64,000 bases of DNA from Escherichia phage TrudiGerster. The stretch is from sequence record MZ501108; one strand, 5' to 3'. Both the position numbers and the translations under genes were made by a program. Of this stretch, positions 7,903 through 63,372 are shown piece by piece. The notes under the pieces are model-generated. The model saw only the letters and a list, made by a program, of their open reading frames with translations. It made no database searches and was not told the DNA's origin. The stretch's first letter is position 1; every line of letters starts with the position of its first letter.

Positions 7903-7928
7903 GTTACAGATTAGGAGAATATAAATAA

Positions 7929-9338
7929 ATGTCTTTACAACTATTACGTAATACTCGAATCTTCGTGTCTACGGTTAAGACTGGTCACACCAAAGAAAAC
8001 ACGCAAGAGATTCTAGTTCAAGATGATATTTCTTGGGGTCAGGACAGTAACTCAACCGATATTACTGTTAACGAAGCTGGTCCGCGTCCAACTCGTGGTT
8101 CAAAACGTTTCAACGACTCCTTGAACGCTGCTGAGTGGAGCTTCTCTACTTACATCCTGCCTTACGCGGATAAAACTACTGGTAAGCAGATCGTTCCAGA
8201 CTATATGTTATGGCATGCGCTCTCTAGTGGTAAGCCTATCGATCTCGATGGTGATACTGGAGCTCATACTAACGAAACCAACTTCATGGTTAACTTTAAG
8301 GATAACGCATATCACGAACTGGCTATGCTGCACATTTATATCCTTACTGATAAAGCCTGGAGTTACATTGATTCCTGTCAGATCAACCAAGCCGAAGTAA
8401 ACGTAGATATCGAAGATATCGGTCGTGTAACTTGGTCGGGTAACGGTAACCAGCTGATTCCTTTGGATTCACAGCCATTTGACCCTGATACTGTAGGTAT
8501 CGATGATGAAACTTACATGACTATCCAGAGTTCTTATATTAAGAACAAATTAACTATCCTGAAGATCAAGGATATGGATACTGGTAAGGCATATGATATT
8601 CCGATCACTGGTGGTAGCTTCACAATCAACAACAACATCACCTACCTGACTCCGAACATCATGTCCCGTGTAAACATTCCAATCGGTTCCTTTACTGGTG
8701 CATTCGAACTAACTGGTTCTCTGACTGCTTATCTGAACGATAAAGCTCTAGGTTCTATGGATCTGTACAAAGATCTGATTAAGACCCTGAAAGTAGTTAA
8801 CCGTTTCGAAATTGCCCTGATTCTTGGTGGTGAATACGATGATGAGCGCCCTGCAGCTGTTCTGGTCGCTAAGCAAGCCCACGTTAACATCCCAACTATC
8901 GAGACTGACGATGTACTTGGTACTTCTGTTGAGTTCAAGGCTATCCCTACCGATCTGGATACAGGTGATGAAGGTTACCTTGGTTTCTCTAACAAGTATA
9001 CCAAAACTACTATCGCTAACCTGATTGCTACAGGTGACGGTGGTCAAGTTGCTCCGGTTCCAGTTACTGGCATTACTGTTAAGTCTGCTGGTGACGCTAC
9101 TTCAGTTGAAAACAGCGCAACTCTTCAGATGACTGTAGATGTTCTGCCTGCTGAAGCTACGAACAAGGCTGTAACTTGGTCTATCTCTTCTGGTACTGCT
9201 GCTACTATTGACGCAACTTCTGGTCTTCTGACTGCTGATGCTTCTAAAACTGGTGCAATTACGGTCAAAGCGGTAGCTAAAGACGGTTCTGGTGTAGAAG
9301 GTACTAAGAGCATTACAGTTACTGCTTCTGGTGGCTAA
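7929..9338 (+). CDS. major tail tube protein with C-terminal Big_2-like Ig domain (pb6-like)
   Basis: 469 aa; C-terminal Ig-like segment (VTGITVKSAGDATSVENSATLQMTVDVLPAEATNKAVTWSISSGTAATIDATSGLLTA); biased codons. Confidence 0.78.
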   Translation: MSLQLLRNTRIFVSTVKTGHTKENTQEILVQDDISWGQDSNSTDITVNEAGPRPTRGSKRFNDSLNAAEWSFSTYILPYADKTTGKQIVPDYMLWHALSSGKPIDLDGDTGAHTNETNFMVNFKDNAYHELAMLHIYILTDKAWSYIDSCQINQAEVNVDIEDIGRVTWSGNGNQLIPLDSQPFDPDTVGIDDETYMTIQSSYIKNKLTILKIKDMDTGKAYDIPITGGSFTINNNITYLTPNIMSRVNIPIGSFTGAFELTGSLTAYLNDKALGSMDLYKDLIKTLKVVNRFEIALILGGEYDDERPAAVLVAKQAHVNIPTIETDDVLGTSVEFKAIPTDLDTGDEGYLGFSNKYTKTTIANLIATGDGGQVAPVPVTGITVKSAGDATSVENSATLQMTVDVLPAEATNKAVTWSISSGTAATIDATSGLLTADASKTGAITVKAVAKDGSGVEGTKSITVTASGG

Positions 9339-9342
9339 TTAA

Positions 9343-10239
9343 ATGTACTACTCTCTAATGCGAGAGTCGAAAGTTATAGTTGAGTACGATGGCAGGGCGT
9401 ATCACTTTGACGCTCTGTCAAACTATGATATCAATACCTCCTACGAGGAATTTAAAACTCTTCGTAGGACTATTCATCGCAGAACCAACTATGCTGACTC
9501 TGTTATTAACGCACAAGCTCCATCATCAATATCGCTGGCTATAAATTTTAGTAATACCCTTACTGAGGCTAACTTCTTTGAATGGATGGGCTTTGATAGA
9601 GAGGGTACTACCTTCCTACTACCACTTTATAGCACGAATATTGAACCAACAATGTTTAATATCTACATAGTTAATAAAGATAATAACTGTGTATATTTTG
9701 AAAACTGTTTTGTATCTAACGTTGACTTCTCACTTGATAAGAATGTCCCTGTGCTGAATGTTGGTATTGAGTCTGGTAAGTTCTCTGAGGTATCCACGTA
9801 CACTCCTGCTGGTATTGTTCAAGGCGAGGTTATGTCTTACAGCCCTCCTAGAGTAGCTACAAACAGTAATATTTTACCTGCTCTTTTATCCGCTTCTATG
9901 TCCTTCCAGCAGCAATGCTCTTGGAGAGAAGATAAAAGCGTATTTGACATAAACAAAATATATAATAATAAAAGAGCTTATGTTAATGAGATGAATGCTT
10001 CGGCAACAATTGCGTTCTACTACACCAAGCGATTTGCTGGTGATATGTTCTACAATATTGAACCTGAGACTGATATCCCTTTAACTATACGAAATGAACA
10101 TATTTCGGTTGATTTCCCTTCAGCACGTATAACAAAACGCCTACAATTCTCGGATCTGTACAGGATTGAGTGGGATGTAATTCCTACTGCTGATTCTGAT
10201 CCGGTAAGAATCGACTTCTTTGGAGAAATAAAGAAATGA
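9343..10239 (+). CDS. tail structural protein (p140-like)
   Basis: 298 aa ORF between tail tube and chaperone genes. Confidence 0.45.
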   Translation: MYYSLMRESKVIVEYDGRAYHFDALSNYDINTSYEEFKTLRRTIHRRTNYADSVINAQAPSSISLAINFSNTLTEANFFEWMGFDREGTTFLLPLYSTNIEPTMFNIYIVNKDNNCVYFENCFVSNVDFSLDKNVPVLNVGIESGKFSEVSTYTPAGIVQGEVMSYSPPRVATNSNILPALLSASMSFQQQCSWREDKSVFDINKIYNNKRAYVNEMNASATIAFYYTKRFAGDMFYNIEPETDIPLTIRNEHISVDFPSARITKRLQFSDLYRIEWDVIPTADSDPVRIDFFGEIKK

Positions 10240-10640
10240 TTAACTTAAAAGATATTACCCTAGATACTCGCTCTGTTACGCTTTCCTACCCTGGTATGCC
10301 TAACTTTAAGCTTGAACTGAACTACATGTCTCGTGCTACCTCTAAGCGTGTTATTGCTTCTGCAAAACGTGATGAGTGGGTTAACGGTACACTGTTACAA
10401 GTTCAGGATGATGACAAGTTCATCGAAGCTTTCGTTGACTCTGCTATCAAAGGTTGGACTGGTCTGACTATTGGTGATGTTGAGAAGCTGATGCTGATTG
10501 AAACTGAAGCTGATCCATCTACCGAAGTTCCTTTTAGCCGCGATAATGCTGTGATGCTAATGCAGAACTCTGCTGCGTTTGATTCTTGGATCAACCAGAC
10601 AGTGTTCCACTTAGACACTTTTCGTAGCCCAAAAGCGTAA
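10236..10640 (+). CDS. tail assembly chaperone (upstream ORF)
   Basis: 134 aa acidic ORF immediately upstream of tape measure region. Confidence 0.5.
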   Translation: MINLKDITLDTRSVTLSYPGMPNFKLELNYMSRATSKRVIASAKRDEWVNGTLLQVQDDDKFIEAFVDSAIKGWTGLTIGDVEKLMLIETEADPSTEVPFSRDNAVMLMQNSAAFDSWINQTVFHLDTFRSPKA

Positions 10641-10701
10641 ACAACTTTTAGATGCCGTTGCCAAATTCGCAGACAAATGCGTTAAATCTTCGGCATCTAA
10701 A

Positions 10702-11070
10702 ATGACTAAAGAACAATACTTAATAATGTGCGAGTCAATGGGTATCGAACCAGATCCTGATGTGATGCCTGTTGAACTCGAAGATTTTCCACCTATCGTA
10801 TCTACTAGTATGCAAATTTATAACAGTCTCATTGATTGTTTCATACCGGGTGACTTTCCTATCTTTATAGGCAAAGACAAGGGTGCATTAGGTGTTTTAT
10901 TTGATATCTATGGGATTACTGATCCGATAGAGAAAGAGTTCGTTCTACATATCATCAATATATTTGATTCGAAAGCAGTAGACGCAGCTCGTAAGAGAGC
11001 CGAGAAACATGGGAAACAGAATGGTCGCACTCCGAACATTAAACCTCATGGAAGATCTCGAGCTCAGTAA
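10702..11070 (+). CDS. tail assembly chaperone (downstream ORF; frame open upstream to 10615)
   Basis: 122 aa; weak RBS at its ATG; its frame is +1 relative to the upstream ORF and open from 10615. Confidence 0.45.
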   Translation: MTKEQYLIMCESMGIEPDPDVMPVELEDFPPIVSTSMQIYNSLIDCFIPGDFPIFIGKDKGALGVLFDIYGITDPIEKEFVLHIINIFDSKAVDAARKRAEKHGKQNGRTPNIKPHGRSRAQ

Positions 11071-31591: not shown

Positions 31592-32365
31592 TTAGTCGTC
31601 CAGATCGCTAGCAGCTTCTGCATCGATACCTTTCTGGGAACCAGCTTCGGAACCACCCTTAGCATCGCCACCTTCCTGCTTCTCACGTCCTTCCATGAAG
31701 GCATCTACTGCTTCTTTCTGTTCTTCGTAAGACGGAACCGGATAGGTTTCTTCCAGAGAAGGAACTTTCTCGAACTTCAGGAAATCGCCATTTTCATCGC
31801 TCAGTGCTTCACCGAGGATATCTACATCAGCAGCGTGTAACTTAGACTCAGCACTGTTAGGATCTTTCAGTTTCATCTGGAACTGCATTGCTGCAATCTG
31901 TTGTACATCGTACTCAGTTTCGAAGCCTTTACCTTTCTTCTCGATAGAGATATCGATATCGAACGGATCGGATAGTTCAAGCTGTTTCATGATAGACTTG
32001 ATGCCTTTCAGGATAGTAGCTTTAACTTCCATTACTTTCAGTTTGTTATCAGAACGGTCGATAACGAAAGCGATGTAGTTCTTCTTAGGTTTCAGCGGAA
32101 CACGATTACCCTCTTTGTCCAGATCTTTCTCGAAGAAGCCCATTTCATGGATCGGGTCAGCTTTACCACGAACAAAGCTCTCTTTAGTACGGTTGAAACG
32201 CAGGCACTCAAACGGAGCTGCATTACCATCTTTGTTAGTCAGCCAGTAGACATAACGCGGAAGAACACCAGAAACGATACGAACACGAGTGATACCGTTG
32301 TTGAATTTCAGGAAGTCGATTTTATCGTTAGAACCGCCAGTAGTTTCGCCCCAAGACTTAGCCAT
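31592..32365 (-). CDS. putative ssDNA-binding protein
   Basis: 257 aa, biased high-expression codons, acidic C-terminal tail (DAEAASDLDD) typical of SSBs; assignment tentative. Confidence 0.5.
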   Translation of the reverse strand: MAKSWGETTGGSNDKIDFLKFNNGITRVRIVSGVLPRYVYWLTNKDGNAAPFECLRFNRTKESFVRGKADPIHEMGFFEKDLDKEGNRVPLKPKKNYIAFVIDRSDNKLKVMEVKATILKGIKSIMKQLELSDPFDIDISIEKKGKGFETEYDVQQIAAMQFQMKLKDPNSAESKLHAADVDILGEALSDENGDFLKFEKVPSLEETYPVPSYEEQKEAVDAFMEGREKQEGGDAKGGSEAGSQKGIDAEAASDLDD

Positions 32366-39691: not shown

Positions 39692-39721
39692 TCTCCTTTG
39701 CACGCTTTCGTGCCTTCTAAA

Positions 39722-39754
39722 TGCAAAAAGGGGAAGGAGCATAGCCCCCTCCCC
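39722..39754 (-). terminator. terminator-like hairpin after the repeat-containing DNA-binding gene
   Basis: imperfect GC-rich hairpin followed on minus strand by tttttgcat. Confidence 0.5.
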
Positions 39755-39773
39755 TTAGGTTTAATTTACCAGA

Positions 39774-40541
39774 TTATTCAGCAGCCGCAGCTTTTGCATC
39801 CAGTTTAGCACGCTTAGCAGCACCATCATAGTCCTTAGCAACCAGACCACGACGAGACAGCATAGATTTAACACCGCGCTCAGACTTACCAGTTTTCTCA
39901 GCGATATCAGCAACAGTCATGTTAGCCAGATCCAGACCTTCTAACAGATCTTCGCGAGTTTTAGCGCTTGAAGTTTCCTGTACCGGCATTGCAGCGATAC
40001 GACCTTCACGAAGCAGGCTCAGAGCTTTACCACGGATCTGCTTGATATTGCGACCGAAGTGAGCAGCGATAGCTTCAATAGTTGCACCAGCAACAACCTG
40101 ATTAACGAAATCAGTTTCTTCGTCAGGAGTGAAGGAACGAACGGCAGCAGCTTTTTCAGTTGGCTTAACAGCAGCAGTCATTTCCAGACTCAGAATCTTA
40201 CCCTGTACCTGCTTAGCACCGAACTGACCACCAGCTACAGCAGCAGCGATTTCAGCGTAGGTATACTGACCAGCATGAGAGTTCAGGAAATCAACCAGTT
40301 CAGCTTCCTGCTCAGGAGTCCACGGGGATTTCTGTACTTCGTTAGCTTTCTGTACTTCGAAGCCTTCTTTACGCAGCTTAGAACCAACAGAGCGGGCGGT
40401 TACGTCCTTGCCAGTTTCAGCAGCCAGTTCTACAGCGATAGCAGCAACTTGTTCTTGAGAGATTACAGCTACACCCAGAGCAACGGCTTTAGCTTTCAGA
40501 GACTCGGTTACACCTTCTACGTTCCAGTTCAGTTTAGACAT
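39774..40541 (-). CDS. abundant DNA-binding-like protein with four tandem ~50-aa helical repeats
   Basis: 255 aa; repeated motif T(V/Y)xEIAxxxGxxxxx(V/I)xxKxLSLxxxG; very strong high-expression codon bias. Confidence 0.5.
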   Translation of the reverse strand: MSKLNWNVEGVTESLKAKAVALGVAVISQEQVAAIAVELAAETGKDVTARSVGSKLRKEGFEVQKANEVQKSPWTPEQEAELVDFLNSHAGQYTYAEIAAAVAGGQFGAKQVQGKILSLEMTAAVKPTEKAAAVRSFTPDEETDFVNQVVAGATIEAIAAHFGRNIKQIRGKALSLLREGRIAAMPVQETSSAKTREDLLEGLDLANMTVADIAEKTGKSERGVKSMLSRRGLVAKDYDGAAKRAKLDAKAAAAE

Positions 40542-40543
40542 TA

Positions 40544-41317
40544 TTATTTTTTCTCCAATAGTTCTTTAATCGACAGGATTTCTATCCCATTCGTTTCGGC
40601 TTTCTTATAAGATGAGGAAGAACGCTTTGATTCATCCTCACAGATGAGGTAGTTTACGTCTTTGGTAACGGACTTCTTAACCGTATATCCTAGACTTTCT
40701 AAGTAGTTTGTTGCATCCGTTCTATTTGCAAAATCTTGCAAAGAACCGGTAATACATACCACGATTCCGTTCGGTTGAGCAACTAAATCATCGATAAAGA
40801 TGATATCAGCTTTTGTGCCCCGAATACCAGAACTAAATTTCCATGGTAGTTCGATAACATCCTTGCCTTGTGGGGAATTTAGCCAGGCTTTATAATTTTC
40901 TCCAGCTTTGCCGTCAGCCTTAACATCATTAAAACTAATGCAACCCTGGGATAGCTTTTTAGCAGCAACCTCTCCAATCAGAGGGATTCCTAAAGAACCG
41001 AGAACTGAACCAAAGTCAATGTCTCCGCGAACCTTAGTATTTAACTCGCTAATTAACTTAGCGGCAACCTTACTTCCCACAGCTCCGACCAAATCTTCTT
41101 CGGTCAGGTAAAACAGTTCTGAGATCTTAGTCAGTTCCAGCTTTTCAATTGTTTTCGGGCCAAAGCCCTTTAACTTCATCTTTGTGCAGAAGTTCTCAAT
41201 TAACTTACTTGACTGAGCTGGACAGTTGGACTTATTCCGACAGAATAATTGTCCGTTGACAAGATCTAGCTTAGAACCACAAGAGGGACATTGTGTTGGA
41301 ATTTCGATTTTCATCAA
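40544..41317 (-). CDS. NAD-dependent DNA ligase, C-terminal part (Zn finger, HhH, BRCT)
   Basis: 257 aa; CPSCGSKLDLVNGQLFCRNKSNCPAQ zinc finger, HhH region GFGPKTIEKL, C-terminal BRCT-like IVVCITGSL...YLICED. Confidence 0.78.
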   Translation of the reverse strand: MMKIEIPTQCPSCGSKLDLVNGQLFCRNKSNCPAQSSKLIENFCTKMKLKGFGPKTIEKLELTKISELFYLTEEDLVGAVGSKVAAKLISELNTKVRGDIDFGSVLGSLGIPLIGEVAAKKLSQGCISFNDVKADGKAGENYKAWLNSPQGKDVIELPWKFSSGIRGTKADIIFIDDLVAQPNGIVVCITGSLQDFANRTDATNYLESLGYTVKKSVTKDVNYLICEDESKRSSSSYKKAETNGIEILSIKELLEKK

Positions 41318-41344
41318 ATTTCTTCCTTATCAATTTATATAACT

Positions 41345-41373
41345 ATTATAGCAAGTATTTAAGCATTTAGCAA
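41345..41373 (-). promoter_or_regulatory. early promoter upstream of ligase C-terminal part
   Basis: minus strand TTGCTA - 17 nt - TATAAT followed by AGTTATATAAATTGATAAGGAAG. Confidence 0.55.
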
Positions 41374-41520
41374 CTACAATTTTAACTAACTTTGCTTACC
41401 CTCGCCATAACTTTCTATCCCTCAACTGAATGATAATAGTATATACCTAAGCGGCGAAAATGTCAATAACCACTTTATAATTCCGACATGGGAAACGGGT
41501 AGCAAAGGGTTATGAATTAC

Positions 41521-42492
41521 TTAATCTACTCGCTCTACAATACATGGGATTACACCACCAGCACGAATCACTCGAATCTGGCAACCGATCTCTAAATCGA
41601 GAGCGTTAATGTAATCAACGTTATTGAGAGTTGCTTTAATAATCTTGGCATCGTCAATAATTACCGGTTCGAAATATCCAACAGGAGTTACTTTACCAGA
41701 AGCCCCTACCTGCCACTCAACTTTGAGAAGAGTTGTAATTTCGCCTTCTTCATCTTGTTTAATTGCATAAGCACCACGAGGATGTTTATTTGTCCAACCT
41801 TCACGGAAGAATTTGTTGTTGTCATTAATACGAACAACTTTACCATCCATTGGATACCAGTTGAAGTAGTTTTTAATATTCAGTACAGTGATGAAATCTT
41901 CGTTAGCTAACCAAGACATATCATCTAAGTAAGAGCCTGTAATACCTACAGAATCTTCGGAACACTGAATACCATAAGCTACAAAGATCAATCCACCTTC
42001 CGCAATACGTTCGATGAAGTCATCTTCTTCTTTTAAGTTAATAGCACCAGAAGCGTAGTTACGTTTGTTTTCTACTTCTTTAGTGATAAGAACTTCACCA
42101 GTGATTTGAGTTGGTACTTTCTGAGAAATCTTTTTCGGAATGTTCAGCAATCTAACGTTGCTTGTGACATCATTTCCTAGAATACCATTACCACGAGTTA
42201 ACGCTTGAACAAACGTTCCGTCGATATACAACAGAGAAATTGCGCAACCGTCTAGCTTATCAGTTTCTACATCATCAAGAGTAGTGAATGGAGCTTTATC
42301 ACCCCGATCGAAGTAAACTTTCTGCAAAGAATACATACGATACAGATGTGGGATATCACCTTTCGGACCGATGGCATCTTCCGCTGTTGGGAAACGTTTA
42401 AGCAGACGATCATACTCAGCATCAGAGATAATACTATAACCCTGATAATACGCTTCTTGACAACGTTGGATAAACTCTTTTACATTATTCAT
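41521..42492 (-). CDS. NAD-dependent DNA ligase, N-terminal adenylation part
   Basis: KxDG adenylation motif (DKLDGCAISL) and NAD-ligase-like N-terminus; likely start MNNVKEF, whose ATG overlaps the stop of the upstream small ORF. Confidence 0.78.
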   Translation of the reverse strand: MNNVKEFIQRCQEAYYQGYSIISDAEYDRLLKRFPTAEDAIGPKGDIPHLYRMYSLQKVYFDRGDKAPFTTLDDVETDKLDGCAISLLYIDGTFVQALTRGNGILGNDVTSNVRLLNIPKKISQKVPTQITGEVLITKEVENKRNYASGAINLKEEDDFIERIAEGGLIFVAYGIQCSEDSVGITGSYLDDMSWLANEDFITVLNIKNYFNWYPMDGKVVRINDNNKFFREGWTNKHPRGAYAIKQDEEGEITTLLKVEWQVGASGKVTPVGYFEPVIIDDAKIIKATLNNVDYINALDLEIGCQIRVIRAGGVIPCIVERVD

Positions 42493-42685
42493 CGTCGGCG
42501 ATTTCCATCTTGAGTTCTTTATTATACTGCGCAACCATACCAGCTAAATCAGCAGATTCTTTCAGAAACGCATCTCTGTACGCTTTTTGATTTACTGTGC
42601 CGATACTATCTTGATATTTAATGCGAGCCATTGAAAGCAAATTAAGTTTTGCTTGAATTTTGGGAAGTGTTACTGTCATTGCCAT
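42485..42685 (-). CDS. hypothetical small protein
   Basis: 66 aa from ATG MAMTVTLPK after GAGAGGA RBS; translationally coupled to ligase gene. Confidence 0.4.
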   Translation of the reverse strand: MAMTVTLPKIQAKLNLLSMARIKYQDSIGTVNQKAYRDAFLKESADLAGMVAQYNKELKMEIADDE

Positions 42686-42714
42686 AATTGATCCTCTCAT
42701 CAATTTATATAAAT

Positions 42715-42743
42715 ATTATATATTAAAATTGAGCTGAAAGCAA
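42715..42743 (-). promoter_or_regulatory. early promoter
   Basis: minus strand TTGCTT - 17 nt - TATAAT followed by ATTTATATAAATTGATGAGAGGA. Confidence 0.55.
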
Positions 42744-42750
42744 GTACATT

Positions 42751-42786
42751 TATAAAGAAAAAGCCAAGAACTATTCAGTCTTGGCT
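42751..42786 (-). terminator. rho-independent terminator after PC4-like gene
   Basis: minus-strand hairpin agccaaga-ctgaatagt-tcttggct followed by ttttctttata. Confidence 0.65.
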
Positions 42787-43079
42787 TTGAGTTCCTCAGC
42801 TCTTTTCTGAACTTCGGCAAGAACCTCAGATTCACTAAGGATTTGCGTAAAAGCATAGAATAGCTGTGAAGTAGTTTCTAGAGTGTACGGAAAAGAGAAG
42901 CCGGATTTCGTTGGAAACCATTCTCCAGTAATATCCTGGAGCCAATATCTAATTCCCATGTATAGATTCCCACGAAATTCAGATACTGTCAATCTTACTT
43001 GTTCACCTTCCTTTTCCCATAGAAGGATTGACTGATCATCAATGTGTCCTTCATAGTTTTGGTTTACCTGATCGCTCAT
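42771..43079 (-). CDS. PC4/YdbC-like putative ssDNA-binding protein
   Basis: 102 aa; motif LTVSEFRGNLYMGIRYW...GEWFPTKSGFSF resembles the PC4-fold signature. Confidence 0.5.
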   Translation of the reverse strand: MSDQVNQNYEGHIDDQSILLWEKEGEQVRLTVSEFRGNLYMGIRYWLQDITGEWFPTKSGFSFPYTLETTSQLFYAFTQILSESEVLAEVQKRAEELKAKTE

Positions 43080-43129
43080 TTACGTTTCTCAAATAGACAA
43101 AAAGCCCCATATAGGGGCTAATTGCTTTC

Positions 43130-43426
43130 TTATCGGCCTACTGGAGAAGCACGATCTAACTCTGACTGAAGGCTCGTAATGCGACGAACTTTCGCAACAG
43201 GAATGAAACGGAAGCTATCGTTAGTACGGGAGAAAACGAGGATCTCGTCGTCTTTATCCTTACGAATACGTTCACGTTTAATGCGCTCTGCTAGGTATTT
43301 ATCCTGAGCAGGATCAAACTCCATCGTACCCTGAAGATACGTGGTTCCTTTCTGACGCAGTTTCTCATAATGGAGATAAAACTCACCAAATTTGTTGCAT
43401 TGTGCAATGATTTCAGCTTTATTCAT
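43130..43426 (-). CDS. hypothetical protein
   Basis: 98 aa ORF, no recognisable motif. Confidence 0.4.
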   Translation of the reverse strand: MNKAEIIAQCNKFGEFYLHYEKLRQKGTTYLQGTMEFDPAQDKYLAERIKRERIRKDKDDEILVFSRTNDSFRFIPVAKVRRITSLQSELDRASPVGR

Positions 43427-43463
43427 AACTGTATTTCCTTGTGTGGTGGATTTATCTTGAGAA

Positions 43464-43874
43464 TTATTTAGTGATAGCTCGGACAGCTTCTGCCAGATGA
43501 GCAGCTGCTTTACCAGTCAGCTTGTCGATAATCGCTGAATCCAGGAAGTCTGGAGCCAGACCTGCATCAGAGAATGCAGACAGAAGATCGGCATGAGCCT
43601 GAGCTTTAGAAGTACGAGAACCGCCAGAAGCTTTTTCTCCAGTAGATGCAGTTGATTTGGAAGCAGAGCCAGCAGCTTTCTTGATATACAGACCCGCTTT
43701 AGTCAACTTCATACGGAAGCCGTTCGGAGTTACACCGTTTTCCTGAGCGATTTCGCTAACAATTTCCATGCTAACGCCCGGACGCTCATCTTCTGGGAAT
43801 TGCTCCATACGAGCAACGTAATCGGAAGACATTTTTTCGAACAGTTCATCAGTCCACTGAGTTGGAGTAGTCAT
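43464..43874 (-). CDS. putative DNA-binding protein (same helical motif family as 39774-40541)
   Basis: 136 aa; SMEIVSEIAQENGVTPNGFRMKLTKAGL motif; Ser/Ala/Gly-rich linker; biased codons. Confidence 0.45.
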   Translation of the reverse strand: MTTPTQWTDELFEKMSSDYVARMEQFPEDERPGVSMEIVSEIAQENGVTPNGFRMKLTKAGLYIKKAAGSASKSTASTGEKASGGSRTSKAQAHADLLSAFSDAGLAPDFLDSAIIDKLTGKAAAHLAEAVRAITK

Positions 43875-43932
43875 ATTTTTGAATTTCCTTAATTAAGAAT
43901 TAAACAGAATAGTTCTTTCAAACTATGAGAAT

Positions 43933-43961
43933 ATTATATCAAGAATTACAGGATTAAGCAA
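43933..43961 (-). promoter_or_regulatory. early promoter
   Basis: minus strand TTGCTT - 17 nt - TATAAT. Confidence 0.5.
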
Positions 43962-44211
43962 CTGAAATTTTTCAGTAACTGCTACACATCAAGCTCAACG
44001 ATCTCCCAATCATCGGCCAGTGCTTCTTCTAGGGTCAGCTCACACACTTCGTCACTAGGCATTAGTGACGTATCGGAGGGCATCCACACGTACTGGCGTA
44101 CGGTGTTGCTATCTACGAAGAATTTCAGGATTACTGTGTAATCCTTGTTGTTTTCCCAACTAGTCCGCTGGAGATATTTTTACGTCTCTAGCTTTTAACA
44201 GATCAGTTAAT

Positions 44212-44916
44212 TTACTCGCTGCGTCTTCCTTTTTCTTTATCAAGTTTCAGGGCAGCCTTAACAGCTTCATTAACTAACGTGATTACTTCTTCACGAGTAT
44301 ATTTGAAACCTAAAGCCTTAACATCGACTCCCAGCTCTTGCAGATGTTTTACAGAAGCTAATTCGTAGTTCATATAATGAACGTTCTGTTGTTTACCCTC
44401 GCTTAACAACCAAACACGATAAGCTCCTACCGGATTAGTCAATGCTTTCTTAACTTCACCGATACACTGATAGCCAGGAACCCAAACAAGCTCACCAACT
44501 TCAAATTCTTCTGCCATTGCATCATCTGGAACCAGCGGTGGATTCAACGGATCAACGATATCATTGATACGAAGCAGAGCACCATAACGTTCAAGGACAG
44601 ATTTAACCATAGCTACAGAACGATAGTTACGATCGGCAATTTCTTCGAAAGAATCACCAGATAAATACTGTTCAATTACGTTTGCGAGCTCAACACCTTG
44701 AATTAGTGTGCCACGCTTCTTTTTCTTCATTTCCGCGACTTGAACTTGGCGATCCTGCCATTCTTCAATCATTCGTTCCATCGTCGGGTTAGAAGAAACT
44801 CCCAGCATTTCACAAGCAGCTTTCTTCGTTCCACCGTTCTCTAGATGTTCAATAACCTTCTTGAATACATCATCGGAGATTTCGTGGATTTGCTTTTTTC
44901 TACGAGAACCAGCCAT
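44212..44916 (-). CDS. putative HTH DNA-binding regulator
   Basis: 234 aa; two helix-turn-helix-like segments (TKKAACEMLGVSSNPTMERMI; SFEEIADRNYRSVAMVKSVLERYG). Confidence 0.5.
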   Translation of the reverse strand: MAGSRRKKQIHEISDDVFKKVIEHLENGGTKKAACEMLGVSSNPTMERMIEEWQDRQVQVAEMKKKKRGTLIQGVELANVIEQYLSGDSFEEIADRNYRSVAMVKSVLERYGALLRINDIVDPLNPPLVPDDAMAEEFEVGELVWVPGYQCIGEVKKALTNPVGAYRVWLLSEGKQQNVHYMNYELASVKHLQELGVDVKALGFKYTREEVITLVNEAVKAALKLDKEKGRRSE

Positions 44917-44947
44917 TTAAATACTCCTCTCTCAAATTTATGAATCT

Positions 44948-44976
44948 ATTATACAGAAAATTTTTGCAAGATGCAA
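44948..44976 (-). promoter_or_regulatory. early promoter
   Basis: minus strand TTGCAT - 17 nt - TATAAT followed by AGATTCATAAATTTGAGAGAGGAG and ATG. Confidence 0.6.
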
Positions 44977-44984
44977 ATAAATTT

Positions 44985-45218
44985 TTACGATTCCTTGAGC
45001 AAAGAAGCCAGCTCAGCATAAACTTTATCTAACTCAAATCCAACGCGAAGGGACACACGAGTCTTCCGTTGTTTCAGAAGCCATATAGATACGTTAGGGA
45101 TACCAGCGAGACGAGGTGGTACAACCCTACATAACTTTTCCGCAGTGTCATATCCGGAACGTTTACTCTCTTTTACGGGGAACTTCCTTGTTTCCCATTT
45201 TTTATTCTTCGCTGTCAT
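44985..45218 (-). CDS. hypothetical small basic protein
   Basis: 77 aa from ATG MTAKNKKW after GGGAG RBS (track ORF extends to 45269); overlaps upstream gene end. Confidence 0.4.
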   Translation of the reverse strand: MTAKNKKWETRKFPVKESKRSGYDTAEKLCRVVPPRLAGIPNVSIWLLKQRKTRVSLRVGFELDKVYAELASLLKES

Positions 45219-47991
45219 TTCTAGCTCCCAGTTCTGCCAAAGCCTCTTCATGCATCTGACGTTCTTCATCAGTCATGAACTTAACTGGAATCGGCATACA
45301 CTCGATCTTACAGTAAGTTCTGTACCAGTCCACAATCTTTTCTGTATCCAAATCCTTTCCGATACCCATCATTCCCAAGTACATACGAGCATACTTTGGG
45401 TTTGCACTCTGACCTGTTTTAAGGAAGAAATCTTTCTTCTTACCTTTCAGAGCTTCGATAAATGGTTTGATTGTGACATTTGAACACTTCTTAATATCTT
45501 CCCAGAACATCTCGTGCATCTTATGGAAGAATGCAGCCCGATCGTTTGGTTTATCCTTGATATACTGTTCAACATGTTCAACTGTTACATCTTTAATAGA
45601 ATCAAGATGATAGTAACGAACTAGCAGAAGTTTTGCTTCATAAGCATCAGCATGACGTGGTGCACAATAATCAGGAGTTGAGTGCAGGATAGCTTTAATT
45701 CGCTCTTCTGTGTACTCTTTGTTTGCACCTTCGATAGTCCCCCAGCTTTCACTGAAGATATCAATAGTCGCACCCTGATCAAGCAGATAATAGCGTAGAG
45801 TACTAGTATAATTCCTAGACTCCAGCTCACGACGACGTGCATAAAGTTGCTGTGCTAACTCAATCCAACCTTCGTCAATATTATACTGCTCGGAACCCGC
45901 AGAAAATCCACTTGTAGACTTATCAATAAAGTAATAGATATTCTGAGCACCACGGTCGCGCCTGATTGCTTGAAAACGCATGTTTGGCGCTTGGTTACTG
46001 GTTCGAGTAATAACGAATACGTTATCGAAATAGTTAAAGTCAACCCCACTCGTTACAGAGGGACTACATAATAAACAATCAATCTGCTGATCAATTAGCT
46101 CATTAGTTGTGTAATCCAGAATACGACGAATATCCACATCTGATGTGGAATTTGAGTGAATTTCTTTAACTAACGCACCAGTATTACGACGTAACGCCAT
46201 ACCTTTTTCGTTCAGTTCATCCGGACCACAGTCAGATACTAGGATAGATTTCTCACCCATCTCTAGAGATGTTTGTAAGGCAACCCAAATGCTGGATTCA
46301 TCAGGGAACTCATAAGCATGAGCTTTTGCCAGCATTTTACGGTGATGATTATAGAACGCTACCGGTTTATCAAAGTCGATCAGAGAGCCATAGGCTTCAA
46401 TCGTTTCAGCACTAATATCACCATCAGACAGAATAACTGTTTTAGCTGTCATGAGAATATCACGAAGAACCTGAATACATTCACGACGGTTCTTAACAAC
46501 TGGAGCAAACAACAGGTCATTCATTACCGCGTCACATTCATCGATAAAGATTGTATCAATCTGACCAACAAAACTCTTGAATTTATGGATTGAGTGAATC
46601 GTAGTTGACATACGATCAATCGCACCACGCTTGAAGTTCAGCATATCTACAGACTTATCATACTGACCAGCACTAAATTTCTTTGCGTTTGAAGATACCA
46701 GAGCACGAGTGTTTGTTACCGCGATGAAATTCCCAGGAAGAACGCCAGCATCCAGCCACTTCGTTACCGCCGTAGTTTTACCTGTACCAAGACTTGCCTT
46801 AACAAATGTTAGGTGATCTTTTGGAGGTACAATGTTAATCTTCAGATATGGGACTTCCGCTGGAGAATCCGTATTTAACTGTTTTAGAGGAACACCTTTC
46901 AAGTTTTGTGGAATATCTCTACGACTATTGTTAACAAACGCTTTTAACGCCTGTTTACGACCGTTATTGAAGTAATCCTGAATATTACGACTATTATCTT
47001 TAGTTGCAATGTATTCAGACAAGGCAGGTTTAATCTCACGTTCTAACCACGCAAAATCAACACCATCCTCTAACGCTCGGTGATATAGTTTTGGAATAAT
47101 ACGCAGGTACACTCCATCCTCAGCTTCTTCTAATTCGCTGATGGTTTCCTCTACTTTTTCAGAAGCAGCCTTCTTACCTTTGATTTGATCGAGTAAAGAG
47201 TAGAACTCTTCTTTGAACTCACCCCTAGTTGTTTCATAGTCAACTAGGTTGTTTGGCAGATTTACTTTCGAACCCTTAACATACACAAGGCGTGGCTTAT
47301 TCTCCGCTTTAAACGGATCAACTATACCATCGCTAAATAAAGGGTCGGCAAAATAGTGAAGCTGTACAGAAGAATAATAAGCTAAGTCAGCAATATCAAA
47401 ACCATACTTTTGCTTACTACTATCGTTGATAGACGTAAATAAGAACTTTAACTGTCCCTGCGTCACCTTAACATTAGATTCCAGCATTAAGTGCATTCGG
47501 ATACCTGATTTTAATCCAGCCGAAGACGATGCATGAGCAATAAACCCTGCATCAAGAGGAAACATATCCTCACTAATACTATGTAACATCTTAATGATAT
47601 GACGTGCCATGCCAACAAGATTAAACTTGTCGTAACCACCAGTATCCTGAATACCATCCACGTCCATTGCAATAATGTGACTAGGATTAGAAACGTTAAA
47701 GTTTCCACGAGTACGACGGACATTATCCTTTGGAGCCAAACATTTACCACGAATAGCCACAATATGAGGATCTTGGGTTAGCCTACGCATAATAGGCAGC
47801 ATTTCAGCAAGGCTTTGCGGGTCAAGCTCTTCAAGTACATCAAATTTGAAGGGCATGGAAGCTGGTTTACCTTCCGGATGCTCTTTCGAGAATCGCTTAG
47901 CAAAGGTGTAATCTTCCACTTTAATTTCTTTCCAGATGCCTGTTGCTTTATCTCTGGAAAATCCTGCATGACCTTGTAGGATTGAGAACAC
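45202..47991 (-). CDS. putative replication initiator / origin-binding P-loop ATPase
   Basis: about 929 aa; Walker A SLGTGKTTA and Walker B-like IFIDECD in central region; likely GTG start after AGGAG (track ORF extends to 48057). Confidence 0.65.
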   Translation of the reverse strand: MFSILQGHAGFSRDKATGIWKEIKVEDYTFAKRFSKEHPEGKPASMPFKFDVLEELDPQSLAEMLPIMRRLTQDPHIVAIRGKCLAPKDNVRRTRGNFNVSNPSHIIAMDVDGIQDTGGYDKFNLVGMARHIIKMLHSISEDMFPLDAGFIAHASSSAGLKSGIRMHLMLESNVKVTQGQLKFLFTSINDSSKQKYGFDIADLAYYSSVQLHYFADPLFSDGIVDPFKAENKPRLVYVKGSKVNLPNNLVDYETTRGEFKEEFYSLLDQIKGKKAASEKVEETISELEEAEDGVYLRIIPKLYHRALEDGVDFAWLEREIKPALSEYIATKDNSRNIQDYFNNGRKQALKAFVNNSRRDIPQNLKGVPLKQLNTDSPAEVPYLKINIVPPKDHLTFVKASLGTGKTTAVTKWLDAGVLPGNFIAVTNTRALVSSNAKKFSAGQYDKSVDMLNFKRGAIDRMSTTIHSIHKFKSFVGQIDTIFIDECDAVMNDLLFAPVVKNRRECIQVLRDILMTAKTVILSDGDISAETIEAYGSLIDFDKPVAFYNHHRKMLAKAHAYEFPDESSIWVALQTSLEMGEKSILVSDCGPDELNEKGMALRRNTGALVKEIHSNSTSDVDIRRILDYTTNELIDQQIDCLLCSPSVTSGVDFNYFDNVFVITRTSNQAPNMRFQAIRRDRGAQNIYYFIDKSTSGFSAGSEQYNIDEGWIELAQQLYARRRELESRNYTSTLRYYLLDQGATIDIFSESWGTIEGANKEYTEERIKAILHSTPDYCAPRHADAYEAKLLLVRYYHLDSIKDVTVEHVEQYIKDKPNDRAAFFHKMHEMFWEDIKKCSNVTIKPFIEALKGKKKDFFLKTGQSANPKYARMYLGMMGIGKDLDTEKIVDWYRTYCKIECMPIPVKFMTDEERQMHEEALAELGARNDSEE

Positions 47992-48557
47992 AACAATACT
48001 CCTATGCTGGTTATTCGAATACTTTTCTTTAGGACTATTCAAAAAAGAATAGAACAACTATTACTAACGTCAACACAAATATTAATCATCATCAAGCAGT
48101 ATGGATAAGTTACCATACCTCAGTGCTGTGCTCTCTATACTCATATCCAGAATAGAAATTAGGTCTATCGGCCGCTAAGCCATTTCTATTTGTCCTCACT
48201 ATCCTATTGGTAGGTGACTACTGGACGTGTTACCATTCGCAGCTCTTTTCGTTCGCACCCCCATAAAAGCCTCTCCCTATCTAACGAAGCTAATATGCAC
48301 GGTTTGGATTTACCTTTCCGAATTCAGGGTACACAGATCACTTAATTGACAACCAACTAATATCGTATAAACATTAGTAATAGTTAAAACAACCTTTAAT
48401 GGGGCAGCCGAACTGTTCCGTATTGCGGATTGTAAACAAGAAAAATTAGTAAAATCAATTTTTACTAATGTCTCTCAATTCAATATAAATATTATATCAA
48501 CTTTTGGAGCATCCTGCAAGTAAAATTTTCCCGACGGTGCTATCAGTGGCCTTGAGT

Positions 48558-62582: not shown

Positions 62583-63098
62583 ATGGCTAAGCAGAAAAAC
62601 GCAAAAACTCAGGCAGCTCCAGCAGTTAAGACTTTCCCGCAGACCGAAGCTAATCGTAAGGCTCGTCTGGAACGTCATCTGCGTAAGCATCCTGAAGATG
62701 TTCAGGCTGCACAAGCTCTGGGTCGTCCGGCTCCTGTTCGTCAGAAACCGAAGGCTAAAAACTCAACCCGAGCTGTAGCTAAACAGGTTGTGTTCATCAA
62801 AGGTGAAGGCCACAAGTCTGTACCTGTAACCCTGGGCTTCAACGGTGGAGCTGAAATGTTCTCCCGTAAGGACATGTCCCCGAAAGAGTACGAAAAAGCA
62901 GTTAATCAGAAACGTAAGCCAATGGCCGACGTATTCCGTGAAACTCGCGGCCAGTTCGGCTCTGTTAAACCGAATATCTTCGGTGTAGAGTATAGCCGTG
63001 ACAACGTTCGCGCTCTGTGCTACGGCATTGGCATCAAGTTCACTGGTGCTTCTGATCGTAAATCCGCTAAACCGGCTCGTAAGCGTAAAGCGAAGTAA
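62583..63098 (+). CDS. highly basic, codon-optimised small protein of unknown function
   Basis: 171 aa, Lys/Arg-rich at both ends (C-terminal KSAKPARKRKAK), codon usage dominated by cgt/ctg/ccg/ggt; own promoter. Confidence 0.55.
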   Translation: MAKQKNAKTQAAPAVKTFPQTEANRKARLERHLRKHPEDVQAAQALGRPAPVRQKPKAKNSTRAVAKQVVFIKGEGHKSVPVTLGFNGGAEMFSRKDMSPKEYEKAVNQKRKPMADVFRETRGQFGSVKPNIFGVEYSRDNVRALCYGIGIKFTGASDRKSAKPARKRKAK

Positions 63099-63156: not shown

Positions 63157-63372
63157 ATGTTCTCTAAGAAACCACGTTCCGTTACTGAAATCGTTGCTTC
63201 CTTTACCACAATTACTGACGAACTTCAAGCTCGTATTGATGCTGATCAGAAAACCGCTGCTGAAATTCAGAAACAGCAGGAAGAACTTGCTCTGAAATTG
63301 GCTGAAACCAATAAGAGCGAAAAATCTGCTCAAACTATTAAGGAAAACATCCTTAAACTGCTGGGTAAGTAA
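63157..63372 (+). CDS. hypothetical coiled-coil protein
   Basis: 71 aa ORF. Confidence 0.4.
   Translation: MFSKKPRSVTEIVASFTTITDELQARIDADQKTAAEIQKQQEELALKLAETNKSEKSAQTIKENILKLLGK

What the first reader, a model, noticed from the sequence alone, without database searches (positions are those of the whole stretch)
39774..44916. Family of abundant early proteins sharing a repeated short helical DNA-binding-like motif
The 255 aa protein carries four tandem copies of the motif, the 136 aa protein one copy plus a Ser/Ala/Gly-rich linker, and the 234 aa protein two HTH-like segments. The first two have extreme high-expression codon bias. They may be nucleoid-remodelling or transcription-switch factors; the internal repeat structure is unusual.
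Basis: partly seen in the sequence, partly recalled or inferred. Interest (0 to 1): 0.45.

Follow-up and report, generated by a model that had tools for sequence, protein, structure and literature searches.

The report
T5-type D5, D3, D2 HTH proteins
These are the known early genes D5, D3 and 'D2' of a T5-like phage; D5, a classic abundant DNA-binding protein, is built from four tandem helix-turn-helix units, and the other two proteins carry one and two copies of a similar unit.

Summary
The window is a T5-like Salmonella phage (96.5% to phage bobsandoy). The three minus-strand ORFs are orthologues of T5 D5 (97.3% identical), D3 (94.9%) and T5.111/'D2' (90.6%). T5 D5 is annotated as a DNA-binding protein needed for replication and late transcription.

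- **D3:** one unit, a Ser/Ala/Gly linker and a conserved C-terminal domain.
- **T5.111:** two units plus a small beta-barrel. It is not a helicase, despite that label.
- **Shared unit:** cross-protein similarity is modest but reciprocal (E 5e-4 to 1e-2 among 551 ORFs). Common descent is therefore likely, not proven.
- **Expression:** D5 ranks 1st and D3 5th of 65 genes for codon bias, and conserved strong T5 promoters (P-N25, P-N26, P-K28a/b) lie upstream.
- **Functional link:** a 2026 preprint shows T5 D5 triggers a retron through its HTH, with escape mutations in all three genes.

Overall this is already known, with added domain detail. D3's GcrA-like layout suggests a testable adaptor role.

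The parts
39774..40541 (-). D5 gene (255 aa, 27 kDa): abundant early dsDNA-binding protein made of four tandem HTH units
   Evidence: 97.3% identical to T5 D5/T5.118. Matches phrog_323 'transcriptional regulator, D5-like' at E 3e-70. AF2 pLDDT 90.1, pTM 0.38. Fop rank 1 of 65.
40344..40526 (-). D5 unit R1 (aa 6-66): helices 11-22, 29-43 and 49-58 with short strands; the most divergent unit
   Evidence: AF2. hhalign to D3_N 58%, R2 51%, R4 45%, R3 38%. The R1 HMM's best non-self hit among 551 window ORFs is D3, E 0.0095. R50, K55 and R57 are invariant.
40164..40328 (-). D5 unit R2 (aa 72-126): Myb-like three-helix unit that starts with W74-T-P-E
   Evidence: R2-R3 hhalign 95.8%, E 7e-9 and SW z 9.2. 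Pfam Myb_DNA-binding hits 15 of 78 family members, best E 8.6e-7. Q113, G114 and K115 are invariant.
39984..40136 (-). D5 unit R3 (aa 136-186): homeodomain/GcrA-DBD-like unit
   Evidence: hhalign to GcrA DBD 80.5% (E 1.3e-5) and to Cbp2 HTH2 91.7%. Pfam HTH_23 hits 44 of 78 members. G171 and K172 are invariant and align with GcrA G38-K39.
39825..39950 (-). D5 unit R4 (aa 198-239): sigma-70-region-4-like HTH, followed by a C-terminal helix at 240-254
   Evidence: Pfam Sigma70_r4_2 scores 28.3 bits against a cut-off of 25.7 and hits 72 of 78 members. hhalign to D3_N 86.5% and to D2s_b 68%.
43464..43874 (-). D3 gene (136 aa): one HTH unit, a flexible linker and a conserved C-terminal domain
   Evidence: 94.9% identical to T5 D3/T5.113. 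phrog_1725 E 2e-48. The family has 186 clusters, nearly all 110-150 aa with both domains. Fop rank 5, Nc rank 2.
43677..43862 (-). D3 N-terminal unit (aa 5-66): W7-T-D-E ... VSMEIVSEIA...NGFRMKL..G
   Evidence: hhalign to D5 R4 86.5% and R1 58%. The D3_N HMM's best non-self hit in the window is D5, E 0.0046. The same cross-hit recurs in marine phage L004, E 1.3e-4.
43617..43676 (-). D3 Ser/Ala/Gly-rich linker (aa 67-86)
   Evidence: Sequence AAGSASKSTASTGEKASGGS. This is the least conserved stretch of the family alignment.
43467..43616 (-). D3 C-terminal domain (aa 87-136): RTSK...DKLTGKAAAHLAEA. It is the most conserved part of D3. Function unknown; proposed protein-interaction module.
   Evidence: It contains most of the invariant columns. 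It has no match to any other segment or window ORF, and no Pfam or PDB match. It contains no cysteine (direct reading).
44212..44916 (-). T5.111 orthologue (234 aa; labelled 'D2' or 'helicase' in databases): two HTH units, a small beta-barrel and a C-terminal helix
   Evidence: 90.6% identical to T5.111. AF2 pLDDT 84.5. No helicase domain in Pfam, no P-loop motif (direct reading), and no helicase fold in Foldseek.
44716..44874 (-). T5.111 HTH 1 (aa 15-67), with a long third helix
   Evidence: AF2 helices 15-26, 31-38 and 43-67. Pfam HTH_28 E 8e-4. hhalign to D5 R3 61%.
44587..44697 (-). T5.111 HTH 2 (aa 74-110): SFEEIADRNYRSVAMVKSVLERYG
   Evidence: hhalign to D5 R3 90.8%, to D5 R4 68% and to Cbp2 HTH2 95.7%, E 9e-9. 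The family profile hits PDB 2lvs at E 9e-6. The HMM's best non-self hit in the window is D5, E 5e-4.
44371..44490 (-). T5.111 beta-barrel (aa 143-182), KOW/Tudor/SH3-like
   Evidence: AF2 strands 143-146, 151-158, 165-170 and 178-182. The best Foldseek hits are the NusG C-terminal domain, Tudor and PWWP domains, with E 0.01 or weaker.
44948..44977 (-). Promoter orthologous to T5 P-N25, driving the 234-aa gene
   Evidence: Consensus scan gives TTTGCA-18-TATAAT. The stretch from the -10 region to the ribosome-binding site is identical to T5 P-N25.
43933..43961 (-). Promoter orthologous to T5 P-N26, driving D3
   Evidence: Alignment to T5 P-N26: TTGCTT...TATAAT conserved, 94% identity over 122 nt.
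41345..41466 (-). Tandem promoters orthologous to T5 P-K28b and P-K28a, driving ligB-D5
   Evidence: TTGACA-17-TATACT and TTGCTA-17-TATAAT with an upstream TG. 97% identical to the T5 region.
39728..39756 (-). Intrinsic terminator immediately after D5
   Evidence: 13-bp stem with 8 GC pairs, followed by a T-run.
43103..43119 (-). Intrinsic terminator ending the D3 / 98-aa transcription unit
   Evidence: AGCCCC-loop-GGGGCT followed by TTTTT. T5 annotates a terminator at the same place.

Best explanation
The three ORFs are the orthologues of the bacteriophage T5 early genes D5, D3 and T5.111 ('D2'). They sit in the replication/early module of a T5-like (Epseptimavirus) phage.

D5 is a 27-kDa chain of four small three-helix helix-turn-helix (HTH) units of the GcrA-DBD / Myb / sigma-region-4 type, joined by short flexible linkers. 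It is made in very large amounts from strong early promoters. It binds double-stranded DNA through several recognition helices at once, so one monomer can contact a long stretch of duplex and many monomers can coat it. Coating phage DNA in this way is how D5 is needed for replication, helps shut off earlier transcription and permits late transcription.

D3 carries one such unit tethered by a flexible Ser/Ala/Gly linker to a highly conserved C-terminal domain. This domain most likely acts as an adaptor that links DNA, or D5-coated DNA, to a protein partner. T5.111 carries two units plus a KOW/Tudor-like barrel. It is a bipartite DNA-binding protein, not a helicase.

Shown here: orthology, domain anatomy, repeat statistics, expression signals and co-conservation. 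Taken from the literature: D5's DNA binding, its role in replication and late gene expression, its HTH-dependent binding to retron msDNA, and escape mutations in all three genes. Inferred: multivalent coating as the mechanism, the adaptor role of D3, DNA binding by T5.111, and common descent of the units.
For: Identity: 96.5% DNA identity to phage bobsandoy, with D5/D3/D2 annotations. 97.3%, 94.9% and 90.6% protein identity to T5. The T5 record notes D5 as 'DNA-binding protein; required for DNA replication and late transcription', and the title of McCorquodale 1979 says the same.

Repeats.

Abundance: codon bias ranks 1 and 5 of 65, conserved promoters P-N25, P-N26 and P-K28, and D5 among the major proteins by spectral count in phiR2-01 preparations.

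Functional link: the retron-Kva2 preprint reports that purified D5 is a 26-kDa monomer that remodels the retron complex, with its HTH modelled by AlphaFold3 on the msDNA stem-loop. Escape phages carried D5 G53D/W74*/V149I/G232D plus D2 E76Q, or D3 E30Q/G85D. All of these residues are present in the window proteins. Most are invariant or nearly invariant in my alignments: W74 and G232 in D5, E30 and G85 in D3, E76 in T5.111.

Co-conservation: all three genes occur in the same order in a marine phage whose D5 is about 47% identical.
Against: No DNA-binding experiment exists for this phage, nor for D3 or T5.111 in any phage that I could find.

D5 is not basic overall (pI 6.8), which is unusual for a non-specific DNA coat.

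No whole-chain structural match reaches E <= 0.001.

The cross-protein similarity is modest. HTH units can resemble each other without recent common ancestry, and the exhaustive D3-profile search showed no D5-sized proteins among the 150 listed of 186 hits.

The primary D5 biochemistry papers are not in the accessible library. Cooperative, non-specific dsDNA binding is therefore cited from my own knowledge of the 1979-1983 literature (Rice et al. 1979; Fujimura & Roop 1983) and was not checked here.
Confidence: 0.72

Rival explanations
1. D5 is a sequence-specific transcription factor. Its four HTH units read a composite operator at late, or early, promoters, as in Myb R2R3, paired-domain or Cbp1-type recognition. 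It would then act as a classical activator or repressor and not as a DNA coat.
For: The units resemble sequence-specific readers: the GcrA DBD, Myb, Zeste, Rap1, Tc3 and the CRISPR-repeat-binding protein Cbp2. Recognition-helix residues are invariant across the family: R50/K55/R57, Q113-G114-K115, G171-K172 and R222-G223. The preprint describes some specificity for the msDNA stem-loop. Databases label the protein 'transcriptional regulator'.
Against: Codon bias equal to that of the capsid gene, together with very strong promoters, implies copy numbers far above what an operator-binding factor needs. The classical biochemistry, from my own knowledge and not checked here, describes cooperative binding to any dsDNA. 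D5 is also required for replication.
Confidence: 0.15
2. The 'family' is only a resemblance. D5, D3 and T5.111 each carry generic HTH units of separate origin, and the shared motif reflects the common constraints on any helix-turn-helix, not paralogy or joint function.
For: Except for R2-R3, the similarities are weak (hhalign 38-91%, HMMER E 5e-4 to 1e-2 in a 551-ORF space). Different units hit different Pfam HTH families. The exhaustive D3-profile search did not list D5-sized proteins. HTH 1 of T5.111 matches nothing by HMMER.
Against: Among 551 ORFs, the best non-self hit of each unit HMM is always one of the other two proteins, while control domains hit nothing. The same cross-hits recur in an independent distant genome, including a colinear match of both T5.111 HTHs to D5 R3+R4. 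The trio is syntenic across distant phages. Retron escape mutations fall in all three genes.
Confidence: 0.25
3. D5 is primarily a replisome accessory factor, and its transcription effects are secondary to replication. It would bind duplex DNA at forks or nicks to control T5 DNA polymerase and ligase.
For: The gene lies inside the replication module, apparently co-transcribed with ligB (no promoter-like site between ligB and D5 and no terminator before D5's end) and directly upstream of DnaB, primase and polymerase, an order kept in distant phages. D5 is required for DNA replication. From my own knowledge, Fujimura & Roop 1983 reported that D5 protein modulates T5 polymerase on duplex templates (not checked here).
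Against: The annotated phenotype includes late transcription and shutoff. No polymerase- or ligase-interaction domain is visible, since the whole chain is HTH units.
Confidence: 0.2

Closest known systems
Bacteriophage T5 D5 protein (T5.118, YP_006946), with D3 (T5.113) and T5.111 'D2'
   Same: Direct orthologues at 97.3%, 94.9% and 90.6% identity, with the same lengths, gene order, promoters and terminators.
   Different: Nothing functional. There are small sequence differences, and the host is probably Salmonella (closest relatives), not E. coli. Neither the T5 record nor the papers I read state the four-unit anatomy of D5 or the sharing of the unit with D3 and T5.111.
Caulobacter GcrA (PDB 5yiu, 7ye1; Pfam PF07750)
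   Different: GcrA has a single DBD and a zinc-containing sigma70-region-2-interacting domain. D3's C-terminal domain has no cysteine and no detectable similarity to it. Pfam GcrA matches only 4 of 78 D5 homologues at E<0.01, and does not match the window protein. Methyl-adenine reading is untested.
Archaeal CRISPR-repeat-binding proteins Cbp1/Cbp2 (PDB 2lvs; NCBIfam HTH_Cbp1)
   Same: They are tandem small HTH units on linkers that bind DNA. HTH 2 of T5.111 matches Cbp2 HTH 2 at 95.7% (E 9e-9) and D5 R3 matches it at 91.7%. The T5.111 family profile hits 2lvs at E 9e-6.
   Different: The NCBIfam HTH_Cbp1 score is 14 bits against a cut-off of 140. They come from a different host domain and context. 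T5.111 adds a beta-barrel and D5 has four units.
Myb/SANT repeat arrays (c-Myb R1R2R3) and other tandem HTH DNA binders (Tc3 bipartite domain, Pax paired domain, SelB four winged helices)
   Different: The Pfam Myb score for the window protein is below the cut-off (18 against 24.4 bits). The three regularly spaced tryptophans of a Myb unit are absent. The linkers are longer.

Membership tests
T5 D5 protein family (PHROG 323) | Full-length sequence homology to T5 D5 | tested here: met
   97.3% identity over 255 of 255 aa. phrog_323 E 2.7e-70, covering residues 1-253.
T5 D5 protein family (PHROG 323) | Position in the replication module: ligB - D5 - DnaB-like helicase | tested here: met
   Same order as in T5, bobsandoy and a marine phage.
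T5 D5 protein family (PHROG 323) | Binds double-stranded DNA; required for replication and late gene expression | not testable with these tools
   Known for T5 only (annotation; McCorquodale 1979, cited; msDNA binding in the preprint).
GcrA family (Pfam PF07750) | N-terminal DNA-binding domain with the GcrA fold | tested here: met
GcrA family (Pfam PF07750) | Sequence match to the family model | tested here: not met
   No GcrA hit for the window proteins at E<=1. Only 4 of 78 D5 homologues hit at E<0.01.
GcrA family (Pfam PF07750) | C-terminal zinc-containing domain that binds sigma70 region 2 | tested here: not met
   D3 and D5 contain no cysteine (direct reading). D3's C-terminal domain has no PDB or Pfam match.
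GcrA family (Pfam PF07750) | Preferential binding of m6A-methylated GANTC sites | not testable with these tools
   Would need binding assays.
Myb/SANT DNA-binding repeats (PF00249) | Three-helix unit scoring above the Pfam gathering threshold | tested here: not met
Sigma-70 family | Region 4 HTH | tested here: met
   Sigma70_r4_2 scores 28.3 bits against a cut-off of 25.7 at residues 204-230, and hits 72 of 78 homologues.
Sigma-70 family | Region 2 (core binding and -10 recognition) | tested here: not met
   No region 2 hit. NCBIfam sigma70-ECF scores 12.4 bits against a cut-off of 42.9. D5 is therefore not a sigma factor.
Cbp1/Cbp2 CRISPR-repeat-binding proteins | Match to NCBIfam HTH_Cbp1 at its cut-off | tested here: not met
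   14 bits against a cut-off of 140. Unit-level similarity to 2lvs is significant.
Helicase (the database label of the 234-aa protein; PHROG 3611 'helicase') | P-loop / RecA-like ATPase core with Walker A and B motifs | tested here: not met
   No helicase or ATPase domain in Pfam. No GxxxxGK[ST] motif (direct reading). The AF2 model is two HTHs, a beta-barrel and a helix. No helicase appears among 808 Foldseek matches. The helicase that Wong et al. characterised as 'D2' is the 928-aa T5.108.

The most novel reading that the evidence does not exclude
D5, D3 and T5.111 form one paralogous module set that together carries out the still-unexplained T5 early-to-late switch. In this reading, D5 coats phage DNA through four HTH units. 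D3 works like GcrA: its single DNA-binding unit is tethered by a flexible linker to a new, zinc-free domain that binds host RNA polymerase (sigma70) or the phage replisome and pre-recruits it to D5-coated DNA. T5.111 supplies site selection through a bipartite HTH pair. The same HTH fold, also reported in the pre-early protein A1, would be what retrons have evolved to sense.
Probability: 0.15. Interest if true: 0.6.

Novelty: already known. Interest (0 to 1): 0.27.

Why it matters
T5 transcribes all three gene classes with host sigma70 RNA polymerase, and the mechanism of class switching is stated to be unknown (abstract of Klimuk et al. 2020). D5 is the long-known genetic requirement for late expression.

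A clear domain map gives concrete constructs and hypotheses for that old question. The map is: D5 with four HTH beads, D3 as a GcrA-like tethered adaptor, and T5.111 as a two-HTH protein.

The map also bears on a 2026 preprint reporting that D5's HTH triggers a retron. In that work the escape mutations fell in D5, D3 and 'D2' together.

It also corrects a propagated annotation, since the 234-aa 'D2 / helicase' is not a helicase.

For this window itself, the result is that the finding is an ordinary, conserved part of a well-known phage.

Tried and rejected
- **Sequence search of solved structures with all three family profiles.** No structure of D5 or D3 exists. The only significant hit was 2lvs, for HTH 2 of T5.111.
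- **Exhaustive search with the D3 profile,** to see whether D3 reaches D5-like proteins at database scale. It did not among the 150 listed of 186 hits. The D3-D5 link therefore rests on pairwise profile comparisons.
- **Pfam PF26822,** which is precomputed on some D5 and D3 homologues and may be the shared unit. It is absent from the local Pfam copy, so I could not name it.
- **The 'helicase' label of the 234-aa protein.** Rejected.
- **GcrA membership.** Rejected, because there is no sequence-level match and no zinc SID. Only the DBD fold and D3's layout resemble GcrA.
- **The DRT4 paper's 'phage-encoded DNA-binding protein'.** This is T5 ORF55, a PriA-NTD-like ssDNA binder, and is unrelated.
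- **The PNAS 2026 daunorubicin paper.** It concerns pre-early genes and is not relevant.
- **McCorquodale 1979 (PMC353123).** Not held, so the classical biochemistry could not be read.
- **Recent duplication at DNA level.** Only short 19-30-nt similarities at 73-79% identity were found, so the repeats are old.

Full report
**1. What the window is.** Bases 39700-45000 match 529 phage records. The best is Salmonella phage bobsandoy (Demerecviridae, Epseptimavirus) at 96.5% identity over the full length. In that record and in phage mar003J3 the region is annotated, on the minus strand, as: DnaB-like helicase, D5, ligB, ligA, a small ORF, a PC4-like regulator, a 98-aa ORF, D3, a small ORF, 'D2'..., replication-origin-binding helicase. 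In the T5 reference (NC_005859) the same genes are T5.118 (D5), T5.113 (D3) and T5.111 (D2). D5 is annotated there as 'DNA-binding protein; required for DNA replication and late transcription; also is involved in shutoff of expression of ...'. The window's proteins are 97.3%, 94.9% and 90.6% identical to these T5 proteins.

Single-sequence Smith-Waterman comparison of segments with 500 shuffles gives four significant links:
- D5 R2 (aa 71-135) against R3 (136-197): z 9.2.
- R4 against the second HTH segment of the 234-aa protein: z 7.0.
- R1 against D3_N: z 5.6.
- R4 against D3_N: z 5.7.
- All other pairs, including the C-terminal domains of D3 and of the 234-aa protein, are at chance level.

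I then collected homologues (633, 51 and 44 proteins) and aligned each family (A1-A3). I cut the alignments into segments and compared them by hhalign:

| Pair | Probability |
|---|---|
| R2-R3 | 95.8% (E 7e-9) |
| R3-D2s_b | 90.8% |
| R4-D3_N | 86.5% |
| R4-D2s_b | 68% |
| R3-D2s_a | 61% |
| R3-R4 | 60% |
| R1-D3_N | 58% |
| R1-R2 | 51% |
| R1-R4 | 45% |
| R1-R3 | 38% |
| Any pair involving the control domains D3_C or D2s_C | 3% or less |

HMMs of each unit were searched against all 551 stop-to-stop ORFs of the window. In each case the best non-self hit was one of the other two proteins: D2s_b to D5 (E 5e-4), D3_N to D5 (5e-3), R4 to D3 (7e-3) and R1 to D3 (9e-3). The R3 HMM also finds the R2 domain (2.6e-3). 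The controls hit nothing below E 2, and no fourth ORF carries the unit.

The DNA-repeat tool independently reports a 19-nt element four times inside D5 at 165/180/189-nt spacing. This is the T-x-x-x-I-A start of helix 2 in each unit. It also reports a 30-nt pair 189 nt apart, which is the TP[DE]EE helix 1 of R2 and R3. These are short and 73-79% identical, so the duplication is old.

The shared register is W/F-T-x-[DE]-[DE] ... [ST]-h-x-[DE]-I-A-x-x-x-G-[KR]-[ST] ... h-[KR]-x-x-L-x-x-x-G-h. D3 residues 67-86 are AAGSASKSTASTGEKASGGS, and this is the least conserved part of the D3 family.

**3. Codon bias and expression signals.** Among 65 non-overlapping ORFs of the window:
- D5 has the highest frequency of E. 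coli-type optimal codons (0.83) and Nc 32.4.
- D3 has Fop 0.75 (rank 5) and Nc 32.1 (rank 2).
- The 458-aa gene at 4698-6074, probably the major capsid gene, has Fop 0.83.
- The 257-aa gene at 31592-32365 has Fop 0.76.
- The 234-aa gene is only moderately biased (0.58, rank 12).

The optimal-codon list comes from my own knowledge. Nc needs no reference set.

Upstream of the 234-aa gene, the sequence from the -10 hexamer through the ribosome-binding site is identical to T5 promoter P-N25. Upstream of D3 the P-N26 sequence is conserved. Upstream of ligB-D5 both P-K28b and P-K28a are conserved. From my own knowledge, these are among the strongest known E. coli sigma70 promoters, and P-N25 is the 'T5 promoter' of common expression vectors. 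Strong intrinsic terminators follow D5 and the 98-aa gene downstream of D3. In a proteomic study of the T5-like phage phiR2-01, the D5 orthologue was among the most abundant proteins by spectral count in virion preparations.

**4. Structure.**
- **D5 model.** pLDDT is 90.1 but pTM is 0.38, so the units are confident and their mutual arrangement is undefined. The helices are at 11-22/29-43/49-58, 76-88/95-101/109-118, 139-150/155-162/166-178 and 210-217/221-231, plus 240-254.
- **Outside references.** After confirming the GcrA sequence in the PDB, hhalign gives R3 against the GcrA DBD at 80.5% (E 1.3e-5). It also gives R3 against Cbp2 HTH 2 at 91.7% and D2s_b against Cbp2 HTH 2 at 95.7% (E 9e-9). 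The invariant G171-K172 of R3 and G114-K115 of R2 align with GcrA G38-K39, and G38 forms part of GcrA's DNA-contact surface.
- **Pfam at family level.** Sigma70_r4_2 hits 72 of 78 members, HTH_23 hits 44, Myb hits 15 and GcrA hits 4.
- **234-aa model.** At pLDDT 84.5 it has two three-helix HTHs (15-67 and 74-110), a four-stranded barrel (143-182) resembling KOW/Tudor/PWWP domains at E 0.01 or weaker, and a long C-terminal helix. It has no ATPase domain or motif.

**5. The 'D2 / helicase' label.** Wong et al. 2013 characterised as 'D2' a helicase with residues up to 928 (AAU05245). This corresponds to T5.108 and to the 951-aa ORF at 45202-48057 here. The T5 RefSeq record puts gene name D2 and product 'helicase' on the 234-aa T5.111, and PHROG 3611 carries 'helicase'. 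The retron preprint's 'D2 (helicase)' escape mutation E76Q fits T5.111, which has E76. It does not fit T5.108, which has H76.

**6. Literature that bears on function.**
- The vB_Sal_S6 paper cites McCorquodale et al. [quoted passage not shown] That paper itself is not held.
- Klimuk et al. 2020 state that all T5 gene classes are transcribed by sigma70 holoenzyme and that the switching mechanism is unknown.
- A July 2026 preprint finds that T5 D5 triggers retron-Kva2. Purified D5 is a 26-kDa monomer that remodels the retron complex, and an AlphaFold3 model places its HTH on the msDNA stem-loop. Escape phages carried D5 G53D/W74*/V149I/G232D plus D2 E76Q, or D3 E30Q/G85D. D2 and D5 are toxic when expressed alone. 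Several of these residues are invariant or nearly invariant in my alignments.
- Stokar-Avihail et al. reported that the N-terminal 60 residues of the T5 pre-early protein A1 also resemble the GcrA DBD, and that A1 triggers retron Ec67.

**7. Distribution.**
- The D3 family has 186 clusters at 50% identity. Nearly all are 110-150 aa and cover both domains.
- A few variants duplicate the C-terminal domain or add N-terminal extensions.
- In a 108-kb marine metagenomic phage contig whose D5 is about 47% identical, the order is large helicase ... T5.111-like (222 aa) ... D3 (131 aa) - 114 aa - PC4-like - ligA - ligB - D5 - DnaB - primase - polymerase.
- The cross-family hits recur there. The D3 HMM hits D5 at R1, R3 and R4 (E 5.8e-5 among 12 proteins). 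The two HTHs of T5.111 align colinearly with D5 R3+R4 (domain E 2.9e-3).

**8. Interpretation.** The best-supported reading is that these are the known T5-type early proteins.
- **D5** is a chain of four HTH beads that binds duplex DNA multivalently and abundantly. This accounts for its known roles in replication and in the early-to-late transition.
- **D3** has the layout that defines GcrA: a DNA-binding domain, an unstructured linker and a small partner-binding domain. However, it lacks GcrA's zinc-containing sigma-interacting domain. It may therefore work like GcrA without being a member of that family.
- **T5.111** is a bipartite HTH protein with a KOW/Tudor-like barrel.
- **Origin of the units.** Whether the units share recent ancestry or only a fold is not settled. 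R2/R3 are clearly duplicates, and the other links are modest but reciprocal and reproducible.

**9. Verdict.** The feature is already known at the level of the genes. My additions are the explicit four-unit map of D5, the GcrA-DBD/Cbp-like nature of the unit, its presence in D3 and T5.111, the GcrA-like layout of D3, and the correction of the 'helicase' label. I did not find any of these stated in the accessible literature. Interest is low to moderate.

Noticed in passing
window 43982-44243 (- strand): The orthologue of T5.112 / bobsandoy_61 (78 aa; labelled 'transcriptional regulator' in T5 RefSeq) is split here into 27-aa and 35-aa ORFs. The cause is one extra A in an A-run (GACGTAAAAATATC against GACGT-AAAATATC in bobsandoy). 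It is either a pseudogene or a homopolymer sequencing error.
   Followed up: partly
window 40542-40552 (- strand), 3' end of ligB: This is a second +1 A homopolymer difference: A6 here against A5 in both T5 and bobsandoy. It makes ligB end ...LEKK* two nt before the D5 ATG; in the relatives ligB overlaps D5 by 8 nt. Two such differences within 4 kb suggest homopolymer-length errors in this assembly.
   Followed up: partly
window 44212-44916 and 45202-48057: There is a naming conflict. Databases call the 234-aa HTH protein 'D2' and 'helicase' (T5 RefSeq, PHROG 3611). The helicase characterised biochemically as 'D2' by Wong et al. 2013 is the ~930-950-aa SF2 protein encoded upstream. The 2026 retron preprint's 'D2 helicase' mutation E76Q maps to the 234-aa protein.
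   Followed up: yes
window 42771-43079 (- strand): A 102-aa protein matches the eukaryotic-type PC4 transcriptional coactivator / ssDNA-binding domain (Pfam PF02229, E 1.5e-8, above the cut-off). It lies between D3 and ligA and is conserved at the same position in the marine relative L004.
   Followed up: no
window 40544-42534 (- strand): The NAD-dependent DNA ligase is split into two genes (ligA 41521-42534, ligB 40544-41317). They are separated by about 200 nt that holds two strong promoters (P-K28b/a orthologues), so the BRCT-containing half is apparently co-transcribed with D5.
   Followed up: partly
window 4698-6074, 31592-32365, 62583-63098, 63157-63372: These are the other genes with codon bias as strong as D5 and D3 (Fop 0.70-0.83). 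The first is probably the major capsid gene. By position the second corresponds to T5 D11, which is annotated as a single-strand DNA-binding protein. The two small genes near 63 kb were not identified.
   Followed up: no
P0345, P0237, P0238, P0256 (D3-family proteins): These are D3 variants. P0345 carries two copies of the C-terminal 'KLTGKA' domain. P0237 has a ~170-aa N-terminal extension, and P0238 and P0256 have extensions of ~60-75 aa. The C-terminal domain therefore behaves as an independent module.
   Followed up: no
L004 (marine metagenome contig, 108 kb), 5064-10735: A distant Demerecviridae-like marine phage keeps the whole early block in order, including D5, D3 and the T5.111-like gene. 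It has two extra genes (233 aa and 223 aa) inserted between the T5.111-like gene and D3.
   Followed up: partly
whole window: The sign of GC skew flips at about 26 kb and about 54 kb, matching the switches in coding strand (+ strand structural genes at 1-26 kb, - strand early/replication genes at 26-54 kb, + strand again after 54 kb).
   Followed up: no
precomputed Pfam column: A recent Pfam family, PF26822, is recorded both on some D5 homologues (for example P0043 and P0060) and on some D3 homologues (P0156, P0168, P0171). It may be a curated model of the shared unit. It is absent from the local Pfam copy, so I could not name it.
   Followed up: partly
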